Shown piece after piece: positions 29,256-52,787 of a stretch of 64,000 nt of DNA. The DNA comes from an uncultured Gammaproteobacteria bacterium (GTDB lineage Bacteria > Patescibacteriota > Patescibacteriia > Patescibacteriales > GWC2-42-12). The stretch is from contig CAYXNZ010000002.1 of assembly GCA_964467155.1 (NCBI GenBank), positions 14,339 through 78,338 of the forward strand, read 5' to 3'. The translations under genes and the position numbers were made by a program. Position 1 is the first letter of the stretch. Each line of letters begins with the position of its first letter. Below the pieces are notes generated by a model. It had not been told where the DNA came from. It ran no database searches and saw nothing but the letters and a program-made list of their open reading frames with translations.

Positions 29256-29337
29256 TTTTAAGCAACTAATAATAAATAGCTAAAATTTGATTTTAAGGTT
29301 GCTAGCTATGAGTTATTAGTTATTTTAGTTTTTGTAT

Positions 29338-29423
29338 GCCGAGATAGCTTCCCGCTAGCTAGCGGGACAGGCAGTTTCCGCCAGAGGCGGACCAGCCTTT
29401 GGCTGGGGTAGATCACAACATAT
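29338..29423. repeat. GC-rich triple-hairpin element beginning with a 12-nt duplicate of the tRNA-Thr 5' end
   Basis: gccgagatagct at 29339-29350 is identical to 29424-29435. Three consecutive palindromes follow: cccgcta-gc-tagcggg, ccgcc-aga-ggcgg, ccagcc-ttt-ggctgg. Confidence 0.6.
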
Positions 29424-29496
<73 letters not shown>

Positions 29497-29814: not shown

Positions 29815-29838
29815 CCCCTCTCCTAATTAGGAGAGGGG
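29815..29838 (+). terminator. Perfect 9-bp GC-rich hairpin (cccctctcc-taatta-ggagagggg) after rpmG; likely terminator or processing site
   Basis: Perfect palindrome read directly. No clean T-run follows, so terminator function is uncertain. Confidence 0.4.
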
Positions 29839-29865: not shown

Positions 29866-29936
29866 GCGGGATTCGTATAATGGTAGTACAGGGGTCTCCA
29901 AAACCTCTAGCGGGGGTTCGATTCCCTCATCCCGTG
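29866..29936 (+). tRNA. tRNA-Trp (anticodon CCA)
   Basis: Acceptor GCGGGAT/ATCCCGT (G-U first pair), D-arm GTAT-AATGGTA-GTAC, anticodon stem GGGGT/ACCTC with loop CT-CCA-AA, T-arm GGGGG-TTCGATT-CCCTC. CCA not encoded. Confidence 0.8.
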
Positions 29937-29943
29937 CAAATAA

Positions 29944-29975
29944 AATAACGCTAATTTTAGCGTTATTTTAGTTTT
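29944..29975 (+). terminator. Terminator hairpin immediately 3' of tRNA-Trp
   Basis: aataacgcta-atttt-agcgttatt followed by TTAGTTTT. Confidence 0.6.
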
Positions 29976-29990
29976 GTCGCATTCTTGCTA

Positions 29991-30019
29991 TTGACATAAG
30001 TATAACTTTTTGCTATAAT
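29991..30019 (+). promoter_or_regulatory. Consensus sigma70 promoter (TTGACA-17 nt-TATAAT) driving the DGR target transcript
   Basis: ttgaca taagtataactttttgc tataat read directly. ~200-nt structured leader before the ATG at 30223. Confidence 0.7.
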
Positions 30020-30222
30020 AAAATATTAAAATCGCTCATTTAAAAAAGGCTTATCCTTACTTTCTTTTGGTTTGTTTTGCTTTTAAAGCAGATCAAAAGA
30101 AAGTCTTGGGATAAACCCTCGGCTATTACAAAAGTGTCAGCTTGTTTTAGCGGTGATATGCTTAAGGCATTAGGGCTTTAAGTGTAGAACTGTTTGACAG
30201 CGGATGCGAAAGGAGCGGAAAG

Positions 30223-30771
30223 ATGAGTAAAATTACCGTAGAACAGATCGGCGAGCTGGTTGAGCAAAGCAAGGGTGAGAATCCTCGGGTAACCAGGGAG
30301 ATCCTGCAGGCTTTCCTGCGAAACCCCAACGCCTTTCTGCGGGCAAGCGTTTATTCAGCTACCGTTGATTACGGGAAAAGCGTTGAGGAAATGGTTGTCG
30401 CCGGCAACTACGACTGGAAAAACAAAGACATCAATTCCAAAAACTTTCCCGTATCAGGTGAGGGAACGGTCAACGTCAATTTCGAGTTGATCCACCTCAA
30501 CAAGGGAGTTAGCTCCGAGGATGCTTTGACCCACCTCGAAGAAAACGGGATGAGGCCACCGACAATTGAGGAATTACTGGTGTTCGGCTCCAGTTACCCC
30601 GAAATCCAGCGGGAATTTCCGGTTATTTGCCTCGGCTCGTCTTGGGTTAATCCCGGCGGCGACCGTTACGTGCCTTACCTCAACGGGAATGGTTCGGAGC
30701 GTGGCCTCGACCTCGGCTGGTTCGACGATGACTGGAATGGGTACTGTCGTTTTCTGGCCGTTCGCAAGTAG
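30223..30771 (+). CDS. DGR target (variable) protein; the C-terminal ~46 aa are encoded by the variable repeat
   Basis: AAAGGAGCGG SD. GC-rich coding sequence. The 3' 139 bp is near-identical to the TR, with mismatches only at TR adenines. C-terminus ...SSWVNPGGDRYVPYLNGNGSERGLDLGWFDDDWNGYCRFLAVRK resembles CLec-fold DGR variable regions. Confidence 0.85.
   Translation: MSKITVEQIGELVEQSKGENPRVTREILQAFLRNPNAFLRASVYSATVDYGKSVEEMVVAGNYDWKNKDINSKNFPVSGEGTVNVNFELIHLNKGVSSEDALTHLEENGMRPPTIEELLVFGSSYPEIQREFPVICLGSSWVNPGGDRYVPYLNGNGSERGLDLGWFDDDWNGYCRFLAVRK
30631..30769 (+). repeat. DGR variable repeat (VR)
   Basis: 139-bp alignment with the TR (31142-31280). 14 mismatches, all at TR adenines (A to G 11, A to T 2, A to C 1). 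Identity ends exactly at ...gttcgcaagt. Confidence 0.9.
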
Positions 30772-30786
30772 GATCTTGTCGCCTTG

Positions 30787-30818
30787 TGTCCTTGGAACTG
30801 GAACTTTGTCCCTTGGAC
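30787..30818 (+). promoter_or_regulatory. Hairpin 18 nt downstream of the VR (gtgtcc...ggacac); candidate DGR homing-enhancing stem-loop
   Basis: Inverted repeat gtgtcc / ggacac. Its position just 3' of the VR matches the cruciform element described for the Bordetella phage DGR. Confidence 0.4.
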
Positions 30819-31141
30819 ACTTGGCAACTTGTAACCTCACAACAAAAACCCCGCACGTTTTATGCTTAGAAAAGCAGACGACGAGCGGGGTTATTTATTT
30901 TGTGATATAATAAATTTGGAAAGTAAACGAATCAGCTCACGGCTACGGTTGCGGGCGGTTGAAATCTGGATACTGCAACAAGTGAGATTATCCAAGGTTA
31001 CGGCTTTGGGTAGAGTGCCGTTGCAATATTCCATAAAATAAAAATACTTGGTATAAGATATCAGTGGGATAATAGCCCCGAATAAAATACAGCCCCGAGA
31101 GTATTCAAAGGGCGGTGGCAAAGACGATATCTTATTATTTT

Positions 31142-31280
31142 AACGGCTCGTCTTGGGTTAATCCCGACGGCAACCGTAACGTGCCTTACCTCAACAGGAA
31201 TGGTTCGAAGCGTAACCTCAACCTCAACTGGTTCGACAATGACTGGAATGAGTACTGTCGTTTTCTGGCCGTTCGCAAGT
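31142..31280 (+). repeat. DGR template repeat (TR)
   Basis: Invariant, A-rich copy of the VR located between the target gene and the RT. Followed by the ctccc-atac-ggggag hairpin plus a T-run. Confidence 0.9.
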
Positions 31281-31284
31281 CTTT

Positions 31285-31605
31285 TCATTCTCTCCCATAC
31301 GGGGGAGTTTCTTTTTTATAAAGCTTCATCCAACCGCCTATCATTCTGCCGATCTCGGCAAGTGGGGCGGATATGGCTGTCAATTTGTTTGTATCAATCG
31401 CTTTTATTTCCCAAAGAAGCTTCAAGAAGAATTTGAGCATATCAAATCTTGCGTTAAGTTCTTTTATCGTGTCGGCCTTTTTGTCTTTCGGCTGATAGCT
31501 TGCCCGCAGAGCAATTGCCAGACAATCGGTAAATAGATTATCTATCTTTTTACCCAAAGTGAAGCGGGTAATTTTCGGCAGATGAATTAAAAAAGAATGC
31601 CACAT
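31285..31605 (-). CDS. avd: DGR accessory variability determinant (Avd-like four-helix-bundle protein), inverted relative to target/TR/RT
   Basis: LNARFDMLKFFLKLLWEIKAI and LAEIGRMIGGWMK align with bAvd (LAMLRFWLRFLAGI, IAEVGRILGSWI). The frame stays open upstream through a C10 tract with no canonical start, so the N-terminus is uncertain. Confidence 0.65.
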   Translation of the reverse strand: MWHSFLIHLPKITRFTLGKKIDNLFTDCLAIALRASYQPKDKKADTIKELNARFDMLKFFLKLLWEIKAIDTNKLTAISAPLAEIGRMIGGWMKLYKKETPPYGRE

Positions 31606-31655
31606 CTGATATGCCTCACTTAATTTGGCGATAATCGGAATATCGCAATTGCTGA

Positions 31656-31665
31656 GGGGGGGGGG
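31656..31665. repeat. G10/C10 homopolymeric tract between avd (minus) and the RT start
   Basis: gggggggggg read directly at the divergent avd/RT junction. It lies inside open frames on both strands. Confidence 0.9.
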
Positions 31666-31687
31666 TAGACTTATAAGCTTTTTGTGT

Positions 31688-32692
31688 ATGAAGATTAAAT
31701 TGATTCATAGTTATAATGATATTATTTGCGTTAATAATTTGTTTTCGGCTTGGAATGAATTTATTGTCGGTAAAAAATCTAAAAAAGATGTGCAGGAATA
31801 TTCCCGCAATCTTCTTGATAACATTATATCACTTCACGAAGATTTGGCTAATAAATCTTATCGGCACGGTGGGTATCACAGTTTTTACATCAATGACCCA
31901 AAACGCAGGCACATTCATAAAGCGAGCGTGCAAGACAGATTGCTTCATCACGCCGTTTACCGCCTGCTGTATCCGTTTTTTGAGAAAACGTTTATCCACG
32001 ATTCATATTCTTGCCGTTTGGAAAAAGGCGTGTATAAAGCGATTGAACGATTTGATGCCTATGCTGGCAAGACAAGCAAAAACGATACCAAGACGGCATG
32101 GATATTAAAGTGCGACATTAAAAAATTTTTCAATAGTATTGTCCATAAAACCTTACTGGAAATTTTAAACAAACACATTCCTGACAAAGATATAATATGG
32201 CTTTTGAATAACGTCATAGACAGTTATCATAATACAAACAAGAGAGGCGTCGGCTTGCCACTCGGTAATTTGACTTCCCAGCTGTTTGCTAATGTATATA
32301 TGAATGTTTTTGATCAGTGGGTTAAGCACAGATTAAAGATTAAGCGGTATATAAGATACGCAGATGATTTTGTATTTTTCAGCAGAGATAAGCGACAGCT
32401 CCATTCTTTGATTGAGCCAGTTGGAGAATTTTTGTTTCAAACATTAGGTTTAACACTTCATCCCAAAAAGATTATCAAAAAGTCATTGTCGTCCGGCATG
32501 GATTTTTTGGGTTGGGTGCATTTGACTCACTATAAAAAATTACGGAACAAGACAAAAGAGCGGATGTTTAGAAAAATAGCCGACGATCCTAGAGATGAAG
32601 TTTTCCAGTCATATCTGGGGCTTTTAAGCCACGGCAATACTTACAAAATTGAAAAAGAATTGCGTAACCTTTATTGGCTTTTAGGAGATTAA
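31688..32692 (+). CDS. DGR reverse transcriptase
   Basis: RT motifs in order. The DGR-specific motif-4 variant LPLGNLTSQLFAN (LGxxxSQ) and YADDFVFF are present. Start at ATG 31688 (MKIKLIHSYNDIICVNNLF...). The track start at 31625 would read through the G10 tract. Confidence 0.85.
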   Translation: MKIKLIHSYNDIICVNNLFSAWNEFIVGKKSKKDVQEYSRNLLDNIISLHEDLANKSYRHGGYHSFYINDPKRRHIHKASVQDRLLHHAVYRLLYPFFEKTFIHDSYSCRLEKGVYKAIERFDAYAGKTSKNDTKTAWILKCDIKKFFNSIVHKTLLEILNKHIPDKDIIWLLNNVIDSYHNTNKRGVGLPLGNLTSQLFANVYMNVFDQWVKHRLKIKRYIRYADDFVFFSRDKRQLHSLIEPVGEFLFQTLGLTLHPKKIIKKSLSSGMDFLGWVHLTHYKKLRNKTKERMFRKIADDPRDEVFQSYLGLLSHGNTYKIEKELRNLYWLLGD

Positions 32693-32840
32693 AGATAATT
32701 TTTGTTTTATTTACTCTGCCTTTACTTTTAGTGTTGAGTTTTATAAAAATAGTTAAATCATGTTAAAATAAGATATTTTTAGTATTATGAAATTAAAATT
32801 CAGAATTAATTTCAGTTCTAACATCGTCCACGGTCCCGTG

Positions 32841-32883
32841 CAATAAAATAAATACTGGTCATTAGACCAGTATTTATTTTATT
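32841..32883. repeat. 19-bp perfect AT-rich hairpin attached to a partial copy of the tRNA-Trp flank repeat
   Basis: aataaaataaatactggtc-atta-gaccagtatttattttatt, preceded by cccgtgcaa at 32834. Confidence 0.6.
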
Positions 32884-32885
32884 TA

Positions 32886-33035
32886 TACGGAAAGGAGTCG
32901 AACCGGTAGAAACGAGACAAATTCCGAGCCGAAATTCGGTCGGCGAGGAATGTAGTCGAGCGTCGACAAGCTTTTGGGGAAAGCTTGTCGCTACCGTGGG
33001 CAACGAAGTTTGAGCGGAAGCGAAAACGAGGCGGA
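32886..33035. other. GC-rich structured noncoding segment of unknown function between the partial repeat and the distal 20-bp repeat
   Basis: Several perfect hairpins (gacaagctt-ttggggaa-aagcttgtc; ccgaa-a-ttcgg; gtcgag-c-gtcgac). No ORF apart from the spurious minus-strand 32818..33054. Confidence 0.4.
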
Positions 33036-33060
33036 ATTCCCTCATCCCGTGCAAAATAAA

Positions 33061-33090
33061 AACTACAGAGTTAACTCTGTAGTTTTTATT
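33061..33090. terminator. Hairpin terminator downstream of gyrB (minus); usable from both directions
   Basis: aactacagagtt-aa-ctctgtagtt followed by TTTTATTTAT on the plus strand. Confidence 0.55.
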
Positions 33091-33107
33091 TATATCAAAA
33101 TGTATTT

Positions 33108-35144
<2,037 letters not shown>

Positions 35145-42603: not shown

Positions 42604-42688
42604 GTTTTAAACAAATTAAAAAGCCAAGTTTTGGCTTTATTAGCAAGTATAGTTGATATTAACACAAGAGAATGATTTTGGCAAGTTG

Positions 42689-42720
42689 TAGATAAAAAGA
42701 ATGGCTCTGTCCGCTGGTTG
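42689..42720 (-). terminator. Hairpin (ggctctgt...acagagcc) immediately downstream of the retron-type RT on the minus strand
   Basis: 8-bp stem. On the minus strand it is followed by attcttttta. Confidence 0.5.
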
Positions 42721-42731
42721 CGAACAGAGCC

Positions 42732-43529
42732 TTAAGTTATCACTCGTTTGTAGAGTGTGACTATTTTCCGTTCAGTTTTGTTTAAGCTATCCATATTAGT
42801 AACTGAGCAAAAATAGCCATATAGTCCGTGAATTTTCTTCTTTAGTTCTGGGTCTTTTGTTTTTTTGTATTTCCACAGAAGACCGCGAAGTTTGTCGGTT
42901 TTACGGCGAGGACAAAATGTCCGACCGAGGGCTATACCTACTCCATTGATTACTACTGGACCTTTTTTAAAATCAACCACTTTAGAATCATGGTGATTCG
43001 GCTTAAGATTAACTGATTGGATTATTTTTCGTACCTTTCCTCTTATTCCTCTAGTGATAGGCGTATTAGAGGAAAAAAATAAATCGTCAGCGTATCGAGA
43101 GTATATGAGTCCGTATCGTTGACAAAGTTTTTTTGCTTCCAAGTCAATCGTATATCCGAGATAGATATTTAGTAGATCAGGGATAGACGGAAAACCCACC
43201 TTAAATTCGCCAGTTTTTCTGAAGCAGTTTTTTGCTAAAAAAATTTTTATTTCTGACTTTGTTCTGCCAACAAAAAAGGCTTTGAGGGTATAAAGGACTT
43301 CCGTCATTTGCTTTAAACTGATATTTGTGGAAGCACCTTTTATGTCCACCCAATAAATATACTGATTTTAATTGTGAATTCTGATGTTTGCGGTTGGCGA
43401 ACATCCCTTTTTGTATCCCGTTGCGTAAGGCAATCCATTTAAGTATACATTTGCTAATTGCCTCAAGAAGGCAATTAGAACTTTATGGATTAGACGGTCG
43501 TTTTCACTAAGGATTATAGATTTTTGCAT
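42732..43529 (-). pseudogene. Retron-type reverse transcriptase interrupted by an in-frame TAA (plus 43368-43370)
   Basis: AAAGGAGG SD plus ATG 43529. The N-part ...LPYATGYKKGCSPTANIRIHN* carries the retron A.Gf.kgRS...NA..H motif. After the stop, in the same frame: VDIKGASTNIS (DLxDFFxSI-like), GFPSIPDLLNIYL, and GLIYSRYADDLFFS (compare Ec86 GLIYTRYADDL). Confidence 0.65.
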
Positions 43530-43568
43530 TTTTCAAAGTTCGTTACCTCCTTTATTCTATTTTTGTAG

Positions 43569-43672
43569 TGGCAGATCGGACAAAACACAAGAGGGGATTA
43601 ATAGCCCGTGGCGTTAACCCTACGCTTCGCTTGAGCGGAGCGTAATTCAATTATCTTTGTCCGAATCTGCCA
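43569..43672 (-). ncRNA. Candidate retron msr/msd non-coding RNA (a1/a2 inverted repeats flanking ~71 nt), upstream of the RT
   Basis: tggcagatcggacaaa (43569-43584) versus tttgtccgaatctgcca (43656-43672): 16/17-nt inverted repeat. Internal hairpin cgcttcgc-ttga-gcggagcg. Located ~35 nt upstream of the RT SD on the same strand. Confidence 0.4.
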
Positions 43673-43862
43673 TCATATTAAGTTAATACAATATTTTACA
43701 TTTGGCAAGTATTGACAAAAAAAGAATATTATTATAATTTATATGAGTAGCCAAAGGGCTATTTTAATTTAAACAATTTAATAAATCTCTCATACTCTCT
43801 TTATTTTCCTTGTCCTAAATGTTTAGGATGAACTAGAGAGTAGAGGTAAAAAGGAAAAAAAT

Positions 43863-48479: not shown

Positions 48480-48824
48480 ATGAGTAAAAAGGTAAAAATA
48501 CAGTTGGCTCGTGAATTTAGGAAAAGTCCCACAAAATCAGAAAAAATTATGTGGGATGAATTAAGAAGAAATAATTTTTTAAAGTTAAATTTTAGAAGAC
48601 AGCATTTGATTGAAGGTTTTGTAGTTGATTTTTATTGCCACAAATTAAAATTAATTATAGAGATAGACGGTAATATACATGAATATCAACAAGACGAAGA
48701 CGAAGAAAGACAAAAAATAATAGAGCAAAAAGGAAATGTATTTTATAGGATAAAGAGTCAAGACGTAGAAAACAATATAGAAAATATTTTAAGCAAATTG
48801 ATTGATTTTATTAATTTTATATAA
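48480..48824 (+). CDS. DUF559 domain protein (very-short-patch-repair endonuclease-like fold)
   Basis: REFRKSPTKSEKIMWDELRRNNF...FRRQHLIEGFVVDFYCHKLKLIIEIDGNIH matches the DUF559 pattern (REFRKNPT..E..LW..LR....FRRQ..I..YIVDFYC....L.IE.DG..H). Confidence 0.7.
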   Translation: MSKKVKIQLAREFRKSPTKSEKIMWDELRRNNFLKLNFRRQHLIEGFVVDFYCHKLKLIIEIDGNIHEYQQDEDEERQKIIEQKGNVFYRIKSQDVENNIENILSKLIDFINFI

Positions 48825-49412: not shown

Positions 49413-52400
49413 ATGTTTACAAGAAGGAGGCTTGTTTTTTTATTGTGTTTTTCTTTTTTATTTTTTGCGGTTTGTGTTTTGTCTTATGACAATTTGATTA
49501 CTCATCCGAAGCTAACAGAATCAGCAATTAATATTTACGAGCAGGAAGCTGGTAAATATTTAAATTATCAACAAACAAATTGGATTATTAAAGGTTCAAT
49601 TGATGAAGACAATGATCCGCGGTATTTAAACCATTTTTATAACCCACAAACTGGGCGAGGGCTAAACGATGGTTGGTTTCATGGTCAATCAGCTAAAAAT
49701 TGGGCATTTTCTCAAGATAGTGCTACTGGCGATTATTCAGTTGGCGCTATTTTTAATAATTATAGAAACGGTGATTTAATGCGTGCTTATCAGGGTATTG
49801 GCCATATTTTACATTTAATTCAGGATATGAGCGTGCCGGCACATGTTAGAAATGATGCTCATCCAAGCGGCGACCCGTTTGAAGAATGGGCAGAACATTA
49901 TGGGACAATAAACGCTGACAAAATACAAAAAATAAATATCAATAGTATAGAAAATGTTTTTGATGATTTAGCTTTTTTTACTAGTAATAATTTTTTTAGT
50001 AAAGATACAATTGTAATTGAAGAATTGGATAAATATAAAATAGATGAGGAACTAATTGACAACAGAAAAAGGTTTTATTTGATTAATAAAATAGATAAAC
50101 AAGAATATAAATTAGTATATTCAAAAAATCCAGATTCCATAATGCCAGTTTTTCAAATTGATGATGATTTTAAATTAAATCTTGACTATTGGAATATGCT
50201 TTATCCAAAAGCAGTTGGGTATAGCGCGGGCGTGATTGAATATTTTATTAAAGAATTTAAAAAGATAGATCAAGAGAAAAATGAAACAACAATAAGTTTA
50301 TGGCAAAAGATAAAAAATAGCACAAACAATCTTTCTTCAGATTTAGCTTATACGTGGGGCGATACTTTTATTGATAGTAGGATTAGATTAGATAATATTT
50401 TAGCAAGTGCGTTTAGTGGATATACTAAAAGTCAACAAGGATTTGAATTTTTTGCTGAAGCTAATAGAGAAATTTTAACTGATTTAAGTCAAAGGAGTGT
50501 AAATATTGCTCAAAATTTGTCTGGCAAGGTATTATCGGCAGAGGATACCATTTCAAAACAACAGATTCAGACAAAAATAGAAACAGAAGTGATTCAAGAT
50601 TTGAAAAAAAATAATCCAGATGTGGCCAGAGTGATTGATGGCGATACAATTGAATTAACTACTGGTGAAAAAGTTCGTTATATTGGCATTGATACACCAG
50701 AATTAAACAGCGAAGGATCAGATGACGATGAATGTTTAGCTTGGCTAGCCAGATTAAGAAATATGGAGCTTTTAAGCATGGGCGAGTTAAAATTAGTAGA
50801 AGATTCAACTGCCAAGACAGATAAATACGGCAGATTATTGCGTTATGTTTATATAAACAATTTGTTCGTTAATGACGTATTAGTTAAAGAAGGATTAGCT
50901 GAAATATTTTTTTGCCAACCAGGCTGGGAAAATTGTCCAGTAACAACAGATAAAAATAAAGAGAATATAATCAAAGCTTCAAACCAAGAAGCTAAAAATA
51001 ATGCTAGAGGAATTTATTCTGGCGTTTGCGATAAGGAAGATGAGCCTGAAAAAGAAATTATTAAAAAATTTGAAGATAAAATTGAAGAAAAAATAATCTT
51101 GGAAGAAAAATTTATAGAAAATAATACAGCTAGCACGTCAACGTCAACAATGATGCAATTACCTCTTGTTTGCGCGCCAGCTCATAATAATGATTCAGAT
51201 AACACAAATGTTGTTGTTTCAGAGATAGCGAATTTTTCTGTTTTTGATATAACTTCAAGTAGTACTAATATTATTGCCAGTACTACCGTTGGATTAAGTT
51301 ATACAATTAGCAATCAGGAAGCAGTCGAAGGATATTTTTTGTCAGAAGCTTCTACAACACCCGCAATTGACGATGCTAGTTGGGAAACTACTGCGCCAAG
51401 TCAATTTGTTTTATCAAGTAGCGATGGTAAAAAAATAATTTATTTTTGGTTAAAATATAATAGTGATAATATAACAAATTTTGTCAGTTCAACAATTATT
51501 CTAGATACAACAGCGCCGACAATGCCAATGATTACTAGCATAGAACCGTTAAGTGATATTTATTGGGTAAATACTAGTGAAGTTTTGTTAAGCGGAGAAA
51601 AAGAAATTGGAGTTGATGCGATTTTGATAAATGGTGTAGCATATAGTGCGACCAGCAGTGAAGAAACATGGAATGTTAATTATACTTTTGATTTTATTTG
51701 TTCTGACTCAAGCTCCTGGGGTAATTTAGTTGCTTATGATTGTATGACTGAATATTGCAATGGACATAAAGAAGAATGCGATGGTTTGAGTGATGAAGAG
51801 ATGAGAGTATTTTTTTATGAAAGAGAATTGATTTTAAAAGCGAAAAATGAAGCAGGTAATTATTCAGAAGAAGCTGAAAAAGTTTTTAGATTGGATAATT
51901 TTTTGCCAAAAATTTGGGGAGCATTATCAACTAAATCAATTCCCAGTAGTTTTGTGTATTTTTATATGTCAAATTTAGAAGATTTTATGTCGGATTTATT
52001 GTTTTTTAATTCCGGTGTGAGCGGGTATGAGTTTGAATATAAATTTAATGATTCAGAAGATTGGGTTGTTGGAGAAATTGTCGAGGTTAATTATCCTAAC
52101 GCGACTCTTCGGGCAGTATTGTCAGATGAAGGTAATTTTGATTTACGTTTTAGAATGCTTGATTTTGCTGGTAATGTTGGCGAGTGGTACGAAGGTTTGA
52201 CGGCGGAAGTTAATTTTTATCCGGTAATTAGCGAAATTTATATGGATGAAATTAATAGTGGCAGTGAATGGATAGAGCTTTATAATCCATCGGTCAGTGA
52301 TATTGATATCGGTGGCTGGGTAATTGATACCAAAGCAGACGAAGAGGCCGACGTTACTTTGCCAGATGACGCGATAATTCCGGCTTATGGATTTTATTTT

Positions 52401-52787
52401 ATCGGCGATCAAGTATCAGGAGAATGGAATCCCGATAATGTTGACTGGATAGTTCCAGACTACACCGAGACTATGACATTGACAAATGACGATGGCTGGG
52501 TTAGGTTGAGAAAAAGTACTGGTGGTGAAATTGTTGATACAGTTGGTTGGCAGAAAACAAAAGTTAAAGCAGAAGTTTATGAAGGCAGAGAAGTTAATAC
52601 TTTTGGTTGTAAAGAAGGTTATAGTATTGAAAGGTTAAATATGTTACAAGTACTTTCTGATAACACAGATCTTTATCAAAATAAAGGGAATAATTTTGAT
52701 AGGAATTATAATAGCGGGGATTTTGTTGTTAGAGAAACACCCAATCCACAAAATAGTTCGTCAGCAGTTGAAGGGGCGGGGGATTAA
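49413..52787 (+). CDS. Large secreted multidomain nuclease: N-terminal zinc-dependent phospholipase C / S1-P1 nuclease-like domain, central staphylococcal-nuclease (SNase) domain, C-terminal lamin-tail domain
   Basis: Signal/TM at the N-terminus. HFYNPQTGRGL and GIGHILHLIQDMSVPAHVRND (compare B. cereus PLC HFYDPDNGKTY, LGLSLHYLGDVNQPMH). SNase motifs VIDGDTIELTTGEKVRYIGIDTPE...KYGRLLRYVYI...LVKEGLAE. LTD motif VISEIYMDEINSGSEWIELYNPS...IGGWVI. Confidence 0.7.
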   Translation: MFTRRRLVFLLCFSFLFFAVCVLSYDNLITHPKLTESAINIYEQEAGKYLNYQQTNWIIKGSIDEDNDPRYLNHFYNPQTGRGLNDGWFHGQSAKNWAFSQDSATGDYSVGAIFNNYRNGDLMRAYQGIGHILHLIQDMSVPAHVRNDAHPSGDPFEEWAEHYGTINADKIQKININSIENVFDDLAFFTSNNFFSKDTIVIEELDKYKIDEELIDNRKRFYLINKIDKQEYKLVYSKNPDSIMPVFQIDDDFKLNLDYWNMLYPKAVGYSAGVIEYFIKEFKKIDQEKNETTISLWQKIKNSTNNLSSDLAYTWGDTFIDSRIRLDNILASAFSGYTKSQQGFEFFAEANREILTDLSQRSVNIAQNLSGKVLSAEDTISKQQIQTKIETEVIQDLKKNNPDVARVIDGDTIELTTGEKVRYIGIDTPELNSEGSDDDECLAWLARLRNMELLSMGELKLVEDSTAKTDKYGRLLRYVYINNLFVNDVLVKEGLAEIFFCQPGWENCPVTTDKNKENIIKASNQEAKNNARGIYSGVCDKEDEPEKEIIKKFEDKIEEKIILEEKFIENNTASTSTSTMMQLPLVCAPAHNNDSDNTNVVVSEIANFSVFDITSSSTNIIASTTVGLSYTISNQEAVEGYFLSEASTTPAIDDASWETTAPSQFVLSSSDGKKIIYFWLKYNSDNITNFVSSTIILDTTAPTMPMITSIEPLSDIYWVNTSEVLLSGEKEIGVDAILINGVAYSATSSEETWNVNYTFDFICSDSSSWGNLVAYDCMTEYCNGHKEECDGLSDEEMRVFFYERELILKAKNEAGNYSEEAEKVFRLDNFLPKIWGALSTKSIPSSFVYFYMSNLEDFMSDLLFFNSGVSGYEFEYKFNDSEDWVVGEIVEVNYPNATLRAVLSDEGNFDLRFRMLDFAGNVGEWYEGLTAEVNFYPVISEIYMDEINSGSEWIELYNPSVSDIDIGGWVIDTKADEEADVTLPDDAIIPAYGFYFIGDQVSGEWNPDNVDWIVPDYTETMTLTNDDGWVRLRKSTGGEIVDTVGWQKTKVKAEVYEGREVNTFGCKEGYSIERLNMLQVLSDNTDLYQNKGNNFDRNYNSGDFVVRETPNPQNSSSAVEGAGD

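What the first reader, a model, noticed from the sequence alone, without database searches (positions are those of the whole stretch)
29921..33055. DGR sits in a ~3.1 kb insertion at tRNA-Trp bounded by a 20-bp direct repeat, with no integrase
The last 16 nt of tRNA-Trp plus 4 nt of flank (attccctcatcccgtgcaaa) recur exactly at 33036-33055. A degenerate third copy (cccgtgcaa-taaaataa plus hairpin) lies at 32834. This is the classic tRNA 3'-end target-site duplication seen with integrative elements. Here the cargo is only a promoter, the DGR and ~350 bp of structured non-coding DNA. It suggests either a decayed integrative element or an RT-dependent/unknown mobilisation route. It also interrupts the conserved tRNA-Thr/Tyr–rpmG–tRNA-Trp–(secE-nusG) neighbourhood.
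Basis: partly seen in the sequence, partly recalled or inferred. Interest (0 to 1): 0.7.

Follow-up and report, generated by a model that had tools for sequence, protein, structure and literature searches.

The report
DGR island at tRNA-Trp hot spot
A small, complete protein-diversifying retroelement (DGR) lies with no integrase between repeated copies of the end of a tRNA-Trp gene in a Falkowbacteria (CPR) genome, and because relatives hold other DNA at the same spot it is best read as cargo in a repeatedly used tRNA-linked insertion site, not a new kind of mobile element.

Summary
The 20-mer ATTCCCTCATCCCGTGCAAA (last 16 nt of tRNA-Trp plus 4 nt of flank) occurs exactly twice in 64 kb, at 29921 and 33036. 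A real partial third copy lies at 32834. Between the outer copies are a bona fide DGR and about 340 bp of non-coding DNA. No recombinase was found among the window ORFs checked.

A related species (GyrB 87% identical; L108, L092) keeps the same gene order on both sides. Its similarity to the window stops at 29946 and resumes exactly at 33036, and it has no DGR. However, it carries the same two 20-mers around an unrelated 162-nt filler. The repeat therefore belongs to the site and is not a footprint of the DGR's arrival. Other relatives carry a restriction-modification pair after tRNA-Trp.

The insert is composite: a DGR cassette (about 29982-32692, also found elsewhere without such repeats), a 30-nt motif (R30), a terminator, and a ~150-nt GC-rich element (B). 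B starts with an inverted and ends with a direct copy of the tRNA end, and it recurs in other Patescibacteria.

Best reading: an integrase-less, layered islet at a tRNA-Trp integration hot spot, with the recombinase lost or acting in trans. The secE-nusG and RT-mobilisation ideas are not supported.

The parts
29866..29936 (+). tRNA-Trp (CCA), intact; left anchor of the site
   Evidence: ARAGORN; Rfam tRNA 58.9 bits
29921..29940 (+). copy 1 of the 20-mer (end of T-loop, T-stem 3' strand, acceptor 3' strand, discriminator, CAAA)
   Evidence: exact match
29938..29973 (+). terminator hairpin T1 after tRNA-Trp
   Evidence: inverted repeat I7; terminator scan
29991..30019 (+). sigma-70-type promoter (TTGACA-17-TATAAT, TG-extended) for the DGR target gene; left edge of the DGR cassette shared with L110
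   Evidence: similarity of 29988-30078 to L110
30223..30771 (+). DGR target gene (182 aa, no Pfam or PDB sequence match), carrying the variable region at its 3' end
30633..30769 (+). variable region (VR)
   Evidence: 91% identical to TR; all 12 differences at TR adenines
31144..31280 (+). template region (TR)
31285..31605 (-). accessory variability determinant (Avd)
   Evidence: PF22296 bAvd, E=6e-13
31688..32692 (+). DGR reverse transcriptase (334 aa from the ATG); similarity to other DGR cassettes ends at its stop codon
   Evidence: PF00078; homologs at 60-80% identity across Patescibacteria
32693..32810 (.). AT-rich spacer of unknown origin
   Evidence: no significant similarity to the L096 toxin-antitoxin genes
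32811..32840 (+). R30 motif (TTCAGTTCTAACATCGTCCACGGTCCCGTG); left edge of the module shared with L096
32834..32851 (+). copy 2, partial: TCCCGTGCAATAAAATAA (7 nt of tRNA end plus flank)
   Evidence: 18/19 to 29930-29948; 0 of 2000 shuffles
32842..32883 (.). bidirectional terminator-like hairpin T2 (19-bp perfect stem)
   Evidence: inverted repeat I1
32884..33035 (+). B element: GC-rich (~45%), purine-rich, hairpin-rich. The stretch 32882-32910 at its 5' edge (2 nt overlap with T2) is a degenerate inverted copy of the tRNA-Trp 3' end. Homologs occur in L096 and L093, with a shorter variant in L099
33036..33055 (+). copy 3 of the 20-mer (exact); similarity to the DGR-less relative resumes here
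33054..33091 (.). bidirectional terminator hairpin T3, shared with convergent gyrB
   Evidence: inverted repeat I2
33108..35132 (-). gyrB; right anchor of the site

Best explanation
The 3.1 kb between the two 20-mers is a composite, integrase-less genomic islet. It occupies a recurrently used insertion site at the 3' end (T-loop to discriminator) of tRNA-Trp in a Candidatus Falkowbacteria genome. Three copies of the tRNA end mark off two layers. Layer 1 (about 29941-32833) is a self-contained DGR cassette with its own strong promoter, target gene with VR, TR, Avd and RT, followed by an AT-rich spacer and the R30 motif. Layer 2 (32834-33035) is a terminator plus the B element. The repeats are most likely att-type junctions left by site-specific recombination in the tRNA T-loop/acceptor region, the usual signature of tyrosine integrases. 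The recombinase has either been lost or acts in trans, as for a CIME-like non-autonomous element. The DGR is cargo. It does not move the islet; it does the usual DGR job of adenine-directed diversification of the C-terminus of the 182-aa target protein. Shown: the repeats, the DGR anatomy, absence of the DGR from the orthologous locus of a relative, alternative cargo at the same site, the composite structure, and no recombinase detected in the window. Inferred: that a tyrosine recombinase made the junctions, and the order of events.
For: The exact 20-mer runs from the T-loop to 4 nt past the tRNA and is unique to these two places. The partial third copy is non-random. In L108/L092 (GyrB 87% identical; synteny ScpA/B...TIM-FBA-TPR-tRNAs-rpmG-tRNA-Trp|gyrB), similarity to the window ends at 29946 and restarts at 33036, and there is no DGR. 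Different DNA is bounded by the same repeat in that relative. A restriction-modification pair follows tRNA-Trp in L083/85/86, and a 2.4-kb ECF-sigma islet lies between tRNA-Trp-end copies in L093. Identity with the tRNA begins at different T-loop positions in different inserts (ATTCCC, GATTCCC, CGATTCCC, TTCGATTCCC), as expected for independent events at one site. The 20-mer is 20/20 in both lineages although the flanks are only ~79-84% identical. The DGR target/TR region is 46-56% GC against ~30% for the host. The DGR cassette (29988-30078 and 30762-32692) is a module also found next to Zot/Rep and defence genes in L110/L111. There is a precedent for DGRs as cargo of tRNA-integrated elements with direct repeats: Bacteroides ICEs in tRNA-Lys (bioRxiv 10.1101/2024.11.15.621889).
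Against: No integrase was seen in the islet, in the window ORFs checked, in about 10 kb beyond the right end or about 6 kb beyond the left end, or next to tRNA-Trp in any of the 20 metagenome contigs carrying the 20-mer. No empty site and no attP-bearing phage or plasmid was found. The B element begins with an inverted copy of the tRNA end, which simple integrase integration does not predict. Very small inserts (about 100-160 nt) bounded by the repeat recur in L099, L108 and L046, which is odd for decayed islands. T1-like sequence follows tRNA-Trp in other genomes, so the left boundary may be native DNA.
Confidence: 0.45

Rival explanations
1. Standing tRNA-derived duplication plus cassette exchange. 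The second 20-mer belongs to an older local structure: tRNA-Trp, terminator, then B with inverted and direct copies of the tRNA end. That structure arose by fold-back or template-switch replication at the terminator and the TCGA palindrome of the T-loop, or by an old recombination. The DGR cassette later entered between tRNA-Trp and B by homologous exchange through conserved flanks after DNA uptake, or by illegitimate recombination. No site-specific recombinase was involved.
For: The DGR-less relative already has both 20-mers. The direct-inverted-direct layout is seen in W, L096, L093 and L099, and at tRNA-Tyr in L046. B with its 20-mer exists without a DGR (L099, L096). The DGR cassette is a module with homology limits at its promoter and RT stop, and no recombination sites are visible at those limits. 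RecO and RuvX are encoded in the window.
Against: A neutral relic would not stay 20/20 identical in two lineages whose flanks have diverged by about 20%. The DNA to the left of the second copy is unrelated in the two lineages, which calls for repeated events at exactly this position. About 100 nt of GC-rich DNA between the inverted and direct copies is not predicted by a simple template switch.
Confidence: 0.25
2. Homing-endonuclease-driven rearrangement. GIY-YIG endonucleases that target tRNA genes in this clade cause breaks whose repair duplicates parts of the tRNA and captures foreign DNA such as the DGR.
For: In the closest DGR-less relatives (L092/L108), and in L104, 83-107-aa GIY-YIG ORFs sit between pseudo-tRNA-Trp or pseudo-tRNA-Tyr copies and the intact genes. 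The second 20-mer there is preceded by the same type of GC palindrome as in the pseudo-tRNAs. A GIY-YIG gene exists in the same genome just beyond the window. The window has a 15-nt duplicate of the tRNA-Thr 5' end followed by GC hairpins.
Against: There is no GIY-YIG gene in or beside the window's tRNA cluster. The GIY-YIG-linked copies duplicate mainly the 5' parts of the tRNAs and carry a characteristic palindrome that the window's B element lacks.
Confidence: 0.08
3. RT-dependent mobilisation. The DGR reverse transcriptase, or tRNA-primed reverse transcription using the tRNA-Trp 3' end, copied and inserted the cassette.
For: An RT is the only polymerase or recombination-type enzyme in the insert. 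The minus strand of the 20-mer is complementary to the tRNA-Trp 3' end, like a primer-binding site (sequence).
Against: The RT is an ordinary DGR RT with its own TR/VR pair. Homologous cassettes elsewhere sit in other contexts, and no copy of the tRNA-Trp end turned up in those loci. The same repeats bound non-RT DNA (162 nt in L108; sigma-factor genes in L093). No LTR-like or poly-A features are present.
Confidence: 0.02
4. Assembly artefact: a chimeric contig joined through a repeated 20-mer.
For: Short repeats can mis-join metagenome contigs.
Against: Both junctions occur identically in independent assemblies from different samples and pipelines (L081 from JGI, L082 from ENA; L084 covers the left junction). 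The GyrB protein is on contigs up to 97 kb in three sources.
Confidence: 0.01

Closest known systems
Genomic islands and integrative elements inserted in tRNA genes by tyrosine (P4-type) integrases (own knowledge: Williams 2002, sublocation classes of tRNA integration sites)
   Same: Direct repeat made of the tRNA 3' part starting in the T-loop; tRNA kept intact; foreign base composition; absent from the same locus in a relative; accessory cargo.
   Different: No integrase or excisionase; only 3.1 kb; no empty site or attP found; the right arm (B) carries an inverted copy of the tRNA end.
CIMEs (cis-mobilisable elements) and tandem accretion of ICE/IME-type elements, e.g. at the ICESt1/ICESt3 site of Streptococcus thermophilus (own knowledge)
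   Same: att-flanked DNA with no recombination genes; three att-type copies marking off two adjacent modules; presumed dependence on a recombinase in trans.
   Different: No cognate integrase-bearing element identified; mobilisation not shown; the modules are far smaller (0.2 and 2.9 kb).
DGR-carrying ICEs of Bacteroides integrated in tRNA-Lys (bioRxiv 10.1101/2024.11.15.621889)
   Same: A DGR that diversifies a bacterial protein travels as cargo of DNA integrated at a tRNA gene and flanked by direct repeats.
   Different: Those are large conjugative elements with int and tra genes and shown excision. Here only the DGR cassette and non-coding modules are present.
DGRs of CPR/Patescibacteria (own knowledge: Paul et al. 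2017; Roux et al. 2021)
   Same: RT, Avd, and a TR/VR pair with adenine-specific changes at the C-terminus of a small target protein; RT relatives at 60-80% identity are abundant in Patescibacteria.
   Different: Nothing unusual in the DGR itself except that avd is on the opposite strand, which is also the case in L111 and L112.
Integron gene cassettes and attC arrays (CALINs)
   Same: Small cassettes with different accessory cargo (DGR, RelB-YafQ, HTH-Fic), each followed by a shared ~30-nt motif (R30) and a hairpin.
   Different: No R''/R' (RYYYAAC...GTTRRRY) inverted pair; no IntI found; the cassettes carry their own promoters.

Membership tests
Diversity-generating retroelement (DGR) | Reverse transcriptase of the DGR clade | tested here: met
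   PF00078, E=7e-23; thousands of Patescibacteria RT homologs, neighbours with bAvd
Diversity-generating retroelement (DGR) | TR/VR repeat pair whose differences fall at TR adenines | tested here: met
   137-nt pair, 12 of 12 differences at TR adenines (A->G x11, A->T x1)
Diversity-generating retroelement (DGR) | VR at the 3' end of a target ORF; accessory Avd gene | tested here: met
   VR 30633-30769 inside ORF 30223-30771; Avd PF22296
Diversity-generating retroelement (DGR) | Ongoing mutagenic homing (VR variation in the population) | tested here: inconclusive
   The three assemblies have identical VRs; the 4 differences in L082 lie in avd and the spacer. Read-level data are not available.
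tRNA-integrated genomic island (tyrosine-integrase type) | Direct repeat consisting of the 3' part of the target tRNA, with the tRNA left intact | tested here: met
tRNA-integrated genomic island (tyrosine-integrase type) | Island absent from the orthologous locus in relatives, with breakpoints at the repeats | tested here: met
   L108/L092: breaks at 29946 and 33036. The relative's site is not empty, though: it has a 162-nt filler between the same repeats.
tRNA-integrated genomic island (tyrosine-integrase type) | Integrase gene inside the island | tested here: not met
   Only the target gene, avd and RT lie in the insert
tRNA-integrated genomic island (tyrosine-integrase type) | Excision to a circle and an empty attB | not testable with these tools
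   No reads available. No contig with the predicted empty-site sequence among the 20 hits of the 20-mer.
CIME-like non-autonomous integrative element | att-flanked, lacking int/xis | tested here: met
CIME-like non-autonomous integrative element | A cognate integrase-bearing element using the same att site in the same or related genomes | tested here: inconclusive
   None found in the window ORFs checked, in about 16 kb of contig extension, in 20 metagenome contigs, or in IMG/VR. The rest of the genome was not seen.
Integron cassette / attC | attC with paired R'' (RYYYAAC) and R' (GTTRRRY) sites, and an IntI integrase | tested here: not met
   TTCTAAC is present in R30, but no GTTAGAA partner follows it in W, L096, L064 or L113. 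No integrase found.
IS200/IS605-type element (PATE) or TnpB guide-RNA module | tnpA or tnpB in the element, or ends resembling those of the resident IS200-like copy | tested here: not met
   No such gene in the insert. The Y1 transposase copy beyond the window has CCGAGG...CCTCGG hairpins unlike B or R30.
Known RNA family for the B element | Match to an Rfam covariance model | tested here: not met
   Only tRNAs reach threshold; sub-threshold hits are hairpin noise

The most novel reading that the evidence does not exclude
The B element and the R30 motif may mark an undescribed, integrase-less cassette system of Patescibacteria. In it, small promoter-bearing cassettes (DGR, RelB-YafQ, HTH-Fic, ECF-sigma, restriction-modification) are swapped at tRNA-Trp, and perhaps at tRNA-Tyr. 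The swap would use sites that mimic the tRNA 3' end in direct and inverted orientation. The enzyme would be a recombinase encoded elsewhere or some other unknown route, and B could be a structured RNA or DNA cofactor rather than debris.
Probability: 0.15. Interest if true: 0.7.

Novelty: new member of a known kind. Interest (0 to 1): 0.4.

Why it matters
DGRs are very common in CPR bacteria, but how they spread among these tiny genomes, which carry few mobile elements, is poorly documented. This locus shows a complete DGR cassette behaving as exchangeable cargo at a tRNA-linked hot spot. Toxin-antitoxin, Fic, sigma-factor and restriction-modification cassettes sit next to copies of the same tRNA-Trp end in other Patescibacteria contigs, all without a local integrase. 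If the recurring B and R30 modules prove to be the working recombination sites, they would define how accessory genes move in Patescibacteria. If they are only scars, the locus is an ordinary decayed islet.

Tried and rejected
1. The 118 nt upstream of R30 (32693-32810) as a remnant of the RelB-YafQ pair seen in L096: local alignment is no better than shuffles. Dropped.
2. The third copy as pure chance or as a toxin-gene 3' end: rejected, since it matches 18/19 with 0 of 2000 shuffles. The L096 counterparts have drifted.
3. R30 as an integron attC: no R' partner.
4. B as a known RNA: no Rfam family. ARAGORN finds no tmRNA. Single-sequence folds have z-scores of -2.7 (+ strand) and -3.2 (- strand). 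Four members give no common fold (alifold -3.6 kcal/mol). One compensatory pair and two G-U pairs between W and L096 weakly favour a plus-strand structure (from the sequences).
5. B as a dispersed repeat or MITE: nhmmer finds it only beside tRNA-Trp-end copies in 1.56 Mb of held sequence.
6. B or R30 related to the ends of the resident IS200-like element: no.
7. The L108 162-nt filler as a decayed B: not significant.
8. L064 R30-linked hairpins as B relatives: marginal, p about 0.01. Left open.
9. Phage or plasmid origin: no DNA match in INPHARED or PLSDB. The 20-mer and the B motif are absent from IMG/VR. The IMG/VR hits to R30 are no more numerous than I estimate by chance for a 16-mer, and most look like coding sequence.
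10. Right boundary of the restriction-modification variant: the contigs end too early, and the closest longer contig (L118) is a different locus.
11. GTDB species representatives (GyrB 80% identical or less) have no tRNA-Trp after gyrB, so they could not serve as empty-site controls.
12. Function of the DGR target: no Pfam or PDB sequence match.

Full report
**Observation.** The window carries tRNA-Thr, tRNA-Tyr, rpmG and tRNA-Trp (29866-29936) on the plus strand. The 20-mer ATTCCCTCATCCCGTGCAAA consists of the last 16 nt of tRNA-Trp (from the end of the T-loop) plus CAAA. It occurs exactly at 29921 and 33036. Even with 3 mismatches allowed it occurs nowhere else in 64 kb, and no shuffle produced a match. 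Each copy is followed by an A-rich stretch and a perfect hairpin (T1 at 29938-29973, T3 at 33054-33091). Both junctions are present in independent assemblies (L081, L082, and L084 for the left one), so this is not a mis-join.

**What lies between the repeats.**
- A complete DGR. A 12/12 sigma-70 promoter lies at 29991-30019.
- The target ORF is 30223-30771, 182 aa, with no Pfam or PDB sequence match.
- VR is 30633-30769 and TR is 31144-31280. All 12 differences fall at TR adenines.
- Avd is on the minus strand (PF22296) and the RT is at 31688-32692 (PF00078).
- The target/TR part is 46-56% GC against about 30% for the surroundings.
- RT relatives at 60-80% identity are very common in Patescibacteria.
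- In L110/L111 (RT 80% identical) DNA similarity covers 29988-30078 and 30762-32692 and stops at the RT stop codon. There the cassette lies beside Zot/Rep-type genes and a restriction/defence cluster. None of L110-L113 turned up in my scan for extra copies of tRNA ends.

The DGR cassette is therefore a module of about 2.7 kb (about 29982-32692) that occurs in different contexts.

**The remaining 340 bp is a different module.** Window 32811-33066 is 81% identical to part of contig L096, where it follows a RelB-YafQ pair and precedes an HTH-Fic gene. It has four parts:
- R30, a 30-nt motif (TTCAGTTCTAACATCGTCCACGGTCCCGTG). It occurs twice in L096 (after yafQ and after fic). In looser form (AGTTCTAACRTCGYCC plus a hairpin) it occurs 57 nt after another DGR RT in L113 and three times in L064.
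- Hairpin T2.
- Element B (32884-33035), which is GC-rich, purine-rich and full of hairpins.
- The 20-mer.

B-type elements that end in the tRNA-Trp 3' copy also occur in L093 and, in a shorter form, in L099. The first ~30 nt of B are a degenerate inverted copy of the tRNA-Trp 3' end including its flank (TTTGCA...GGGAATCGAAC). This holds in all four loci (p 0.006-0.026 each). The same direct-inverted-direct layout occurs at tRNA-Tyr in L046.

B matches no Rfam family and has no common fold across the four members. It is not a dispersed repeat: it is found only beside tRNA-Trp-end copies in 1.56 Mb of held sequence.

**Comparison with relatives.** The organism is a Candidatus Falkowbacteria (Patescibacteria). 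GTDB representatives reach at most 80% GyrB identity. They share gene order on the far side of gyrB but have no tRNA-Trp after gyrB.

Closer relatives came from protein look-ups. L108 (GyrB 87% identical) and the shorter L092 have the window's gene order on both sides: ScpA/B, glycosyltransferase, peptidase S11, TIM, FBA, TPR protein, tRNA-Thr, tRNA-Tyr, rpmG, tRNA-Trp, then convergent gyrB. Similarity to the window stops at 29946 and restarts exactly at 33036, and there is no DGR.

That site is not empty, however. The same 20-mer occurs twice, 180 nt apart, around a 162-nt filler that is unrelated to the window's insert. Contigs L083, L085 and L086 encode an identical RpmG. In them tRNA-Trp is followed by about 100 nt of structured sequence, a 357-aa ORF and a C5 methyltransferase, and similarity to the window ends at 29938. 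L093 has a 2.4-kb segment with ECF-sigma genes between copies of the tRNA-Trp end. L107 (GyrB 89% identical) has other genes after gyrB.

Three conclusions follow. The DGR is an insertion relative to a close relative. The site is a hot spot with alternative cargo. The repeat is a standing or repeatedly renewed property of the site, not a footprint of the DGR's own arrival.

**Recombinase search.** Pfam scans of the non-obvious ORFs found no integrase, resolvase or transposase in the window. Precomputed domains for the rest agree. About 10 kb beyond the right end the same genome has AbiEii, Fic, an IS200-type Y1 transposase and a GIY-YIG gene. The ends of that IS do not resemble B or R30. None of the 20 metagenome contigs that carry the 20-mer shows an integrase next to tRNA-Trp. 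The 20-mer and the B motif are absent from IMG/VR, and the insert has no match in the phage or plasmid collections.

**Interpretation.** A direct repeat running from the T-loop to just past the 3' end of an intact tRNA gene is the established signature of tyrosine-integrase integration (own knowledge). Here the cargo has a foreign base composition and is absent from a relative. Identity with the tRNA starts at different T-loop positions in different inserts. The repeat is kept perfect in two lineages whose flanks differ by about 20%. Together these point to repeated site-specific events at one att-type site.

Three copies marking off two modules resemble tandem accretion of non-autonomous (CIME-like) elements. 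DGRs carried as cargo of tRNA-integrated elements with direct repeats are known in Bacteroides.

I therefore favour a layered, integrase-less islet whose recombinase is lost or acts in trans (confidence 0.45). The main rival (0.25) is that the second copy belongs to an older tRNA-derived direct-inverted-direct structure (B), and the DGR cassette entered by flank-mediated or illegitimate recombination. A role for the GIY-YIG homing endonucleases that sit among pseudo-tRNA copies in the closest relatives is possible (0.08). RT-driven mobilisation (0.02) and an assembly artefact (0.01) are unlikely.

The coordinates and the repeat are confirmed. 'Insertion at tRNA-Trp without an integrase' is supported. 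A single element with a target-site duplication, the interrupted secE-nusG neighbourhood and the RT route are not supported. The locus is a new example of a known kind, of moderate interest. The recurring B and R30 modules are the part worth a systematic survey.

Noticed in passing
window 42604-43862 (minus strand): About 900 nt of extra DNA between rpmE and rpsB compared with relatives. It looks like a retron-type unit: inverted repeats GGCAGATTCGGACAAA (43671-43656) and TTTGTCCGATCTGCC (43584-43570) around a structured stretch, followed by a split RT (short ORF from 43529, then a 205-aa ORF at 43349-42732 with YSRYADD; weak RVT_1 hit, E=0.004). It is only distantly related to the DGR RT.
   Followed up: partly
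window 29335-29420: A 15-nt duplicate of the 5' end of tRNA-Thr (TATGCCGAGATAGCT, also at 29421-29435), followed by three GC-rich hairpins (TCCCGCTAGCTAGCGGGA, CCGCCAGAGGCGG, CCAGCCTTTGGCTGG) in an otherwise AT-rich genome.
   Followed up: no
window 29815-29838: A perfect palindrome, CCCCTCTCCTAATTAGGAGAGGGG, lies between rpmG and tRNA-Trp. A variant is present at the same place in L083.
   Followed up: no
L092 (whole contig), L108 2067-3300, L104 1-650 (as oriented): Pseudo-tRNA-Trp and pseudo-tRNA-Tyr copies in which the stretch from the anticodon loop to the T-loop is replaced by palindromes of the type CCCC-N6-TCGCGA-N6-GGGG with compensatory variation. They sit next to 83-107-aa GIY-YIG ORFs and the intact tRNA genes. 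This looks like a tRNA-targeting homing system.
   Followed up: partly
L083 2139-4263; also L085 and L086: Strains with an RpmG identical to the window's carry, right after tRNA-Trp, a ~100-nt structured sequence (with a T-arm-like hairpin and an inverted T-loop motif), then a 357-aa ORF with no Pfam match and a C5 DNA methyltransferase. The 357-aa protein is 72-92% identical across many Patescibacteria.
   Followed up: partly
L064 12110-12215, 14670-14770, 15345-15445: Three copies of a ~100-nt element that starts with (A)GTTCTAACRTCG (the R30 core), followed by long GC-rich hairpins and preceded by a shared AATACATYCTCAAYTCC box. They lie downstream of gyrB in another Patescibacteria MAG.
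   Followed up: partly
L046 1290-1512 (minus strand): tRNA-Tyr, a terminator, an inverted T-loop motif (GGGATTCGAA), about 20 nt, a 17-nt direct copy of the tRNA-Tyr 3' end, then a second terminator. This is the same layout as at tRNA-Trp but on a different tRNA and with a very small insert.
   Followed up: partly
L114 11900-15800 (same genome, about 4-8 kb beyond the right end of the window): A cluster of accessory genes: AbiEii, Fic, an IS200-type Y1 transposase flanked by CCGAGG...CCTCGG hairpins, and a GIY-YIG gene.
   Followed up: partly
window 48480-48824 and 49413-52787: A DUF559 endonuclease-like ORF (114 aa) and a 1124-aa protein with staphylococcal-nuclease and lamin-tail domains. 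Neither is found in the relatives' loci examined.
   Followed up: no
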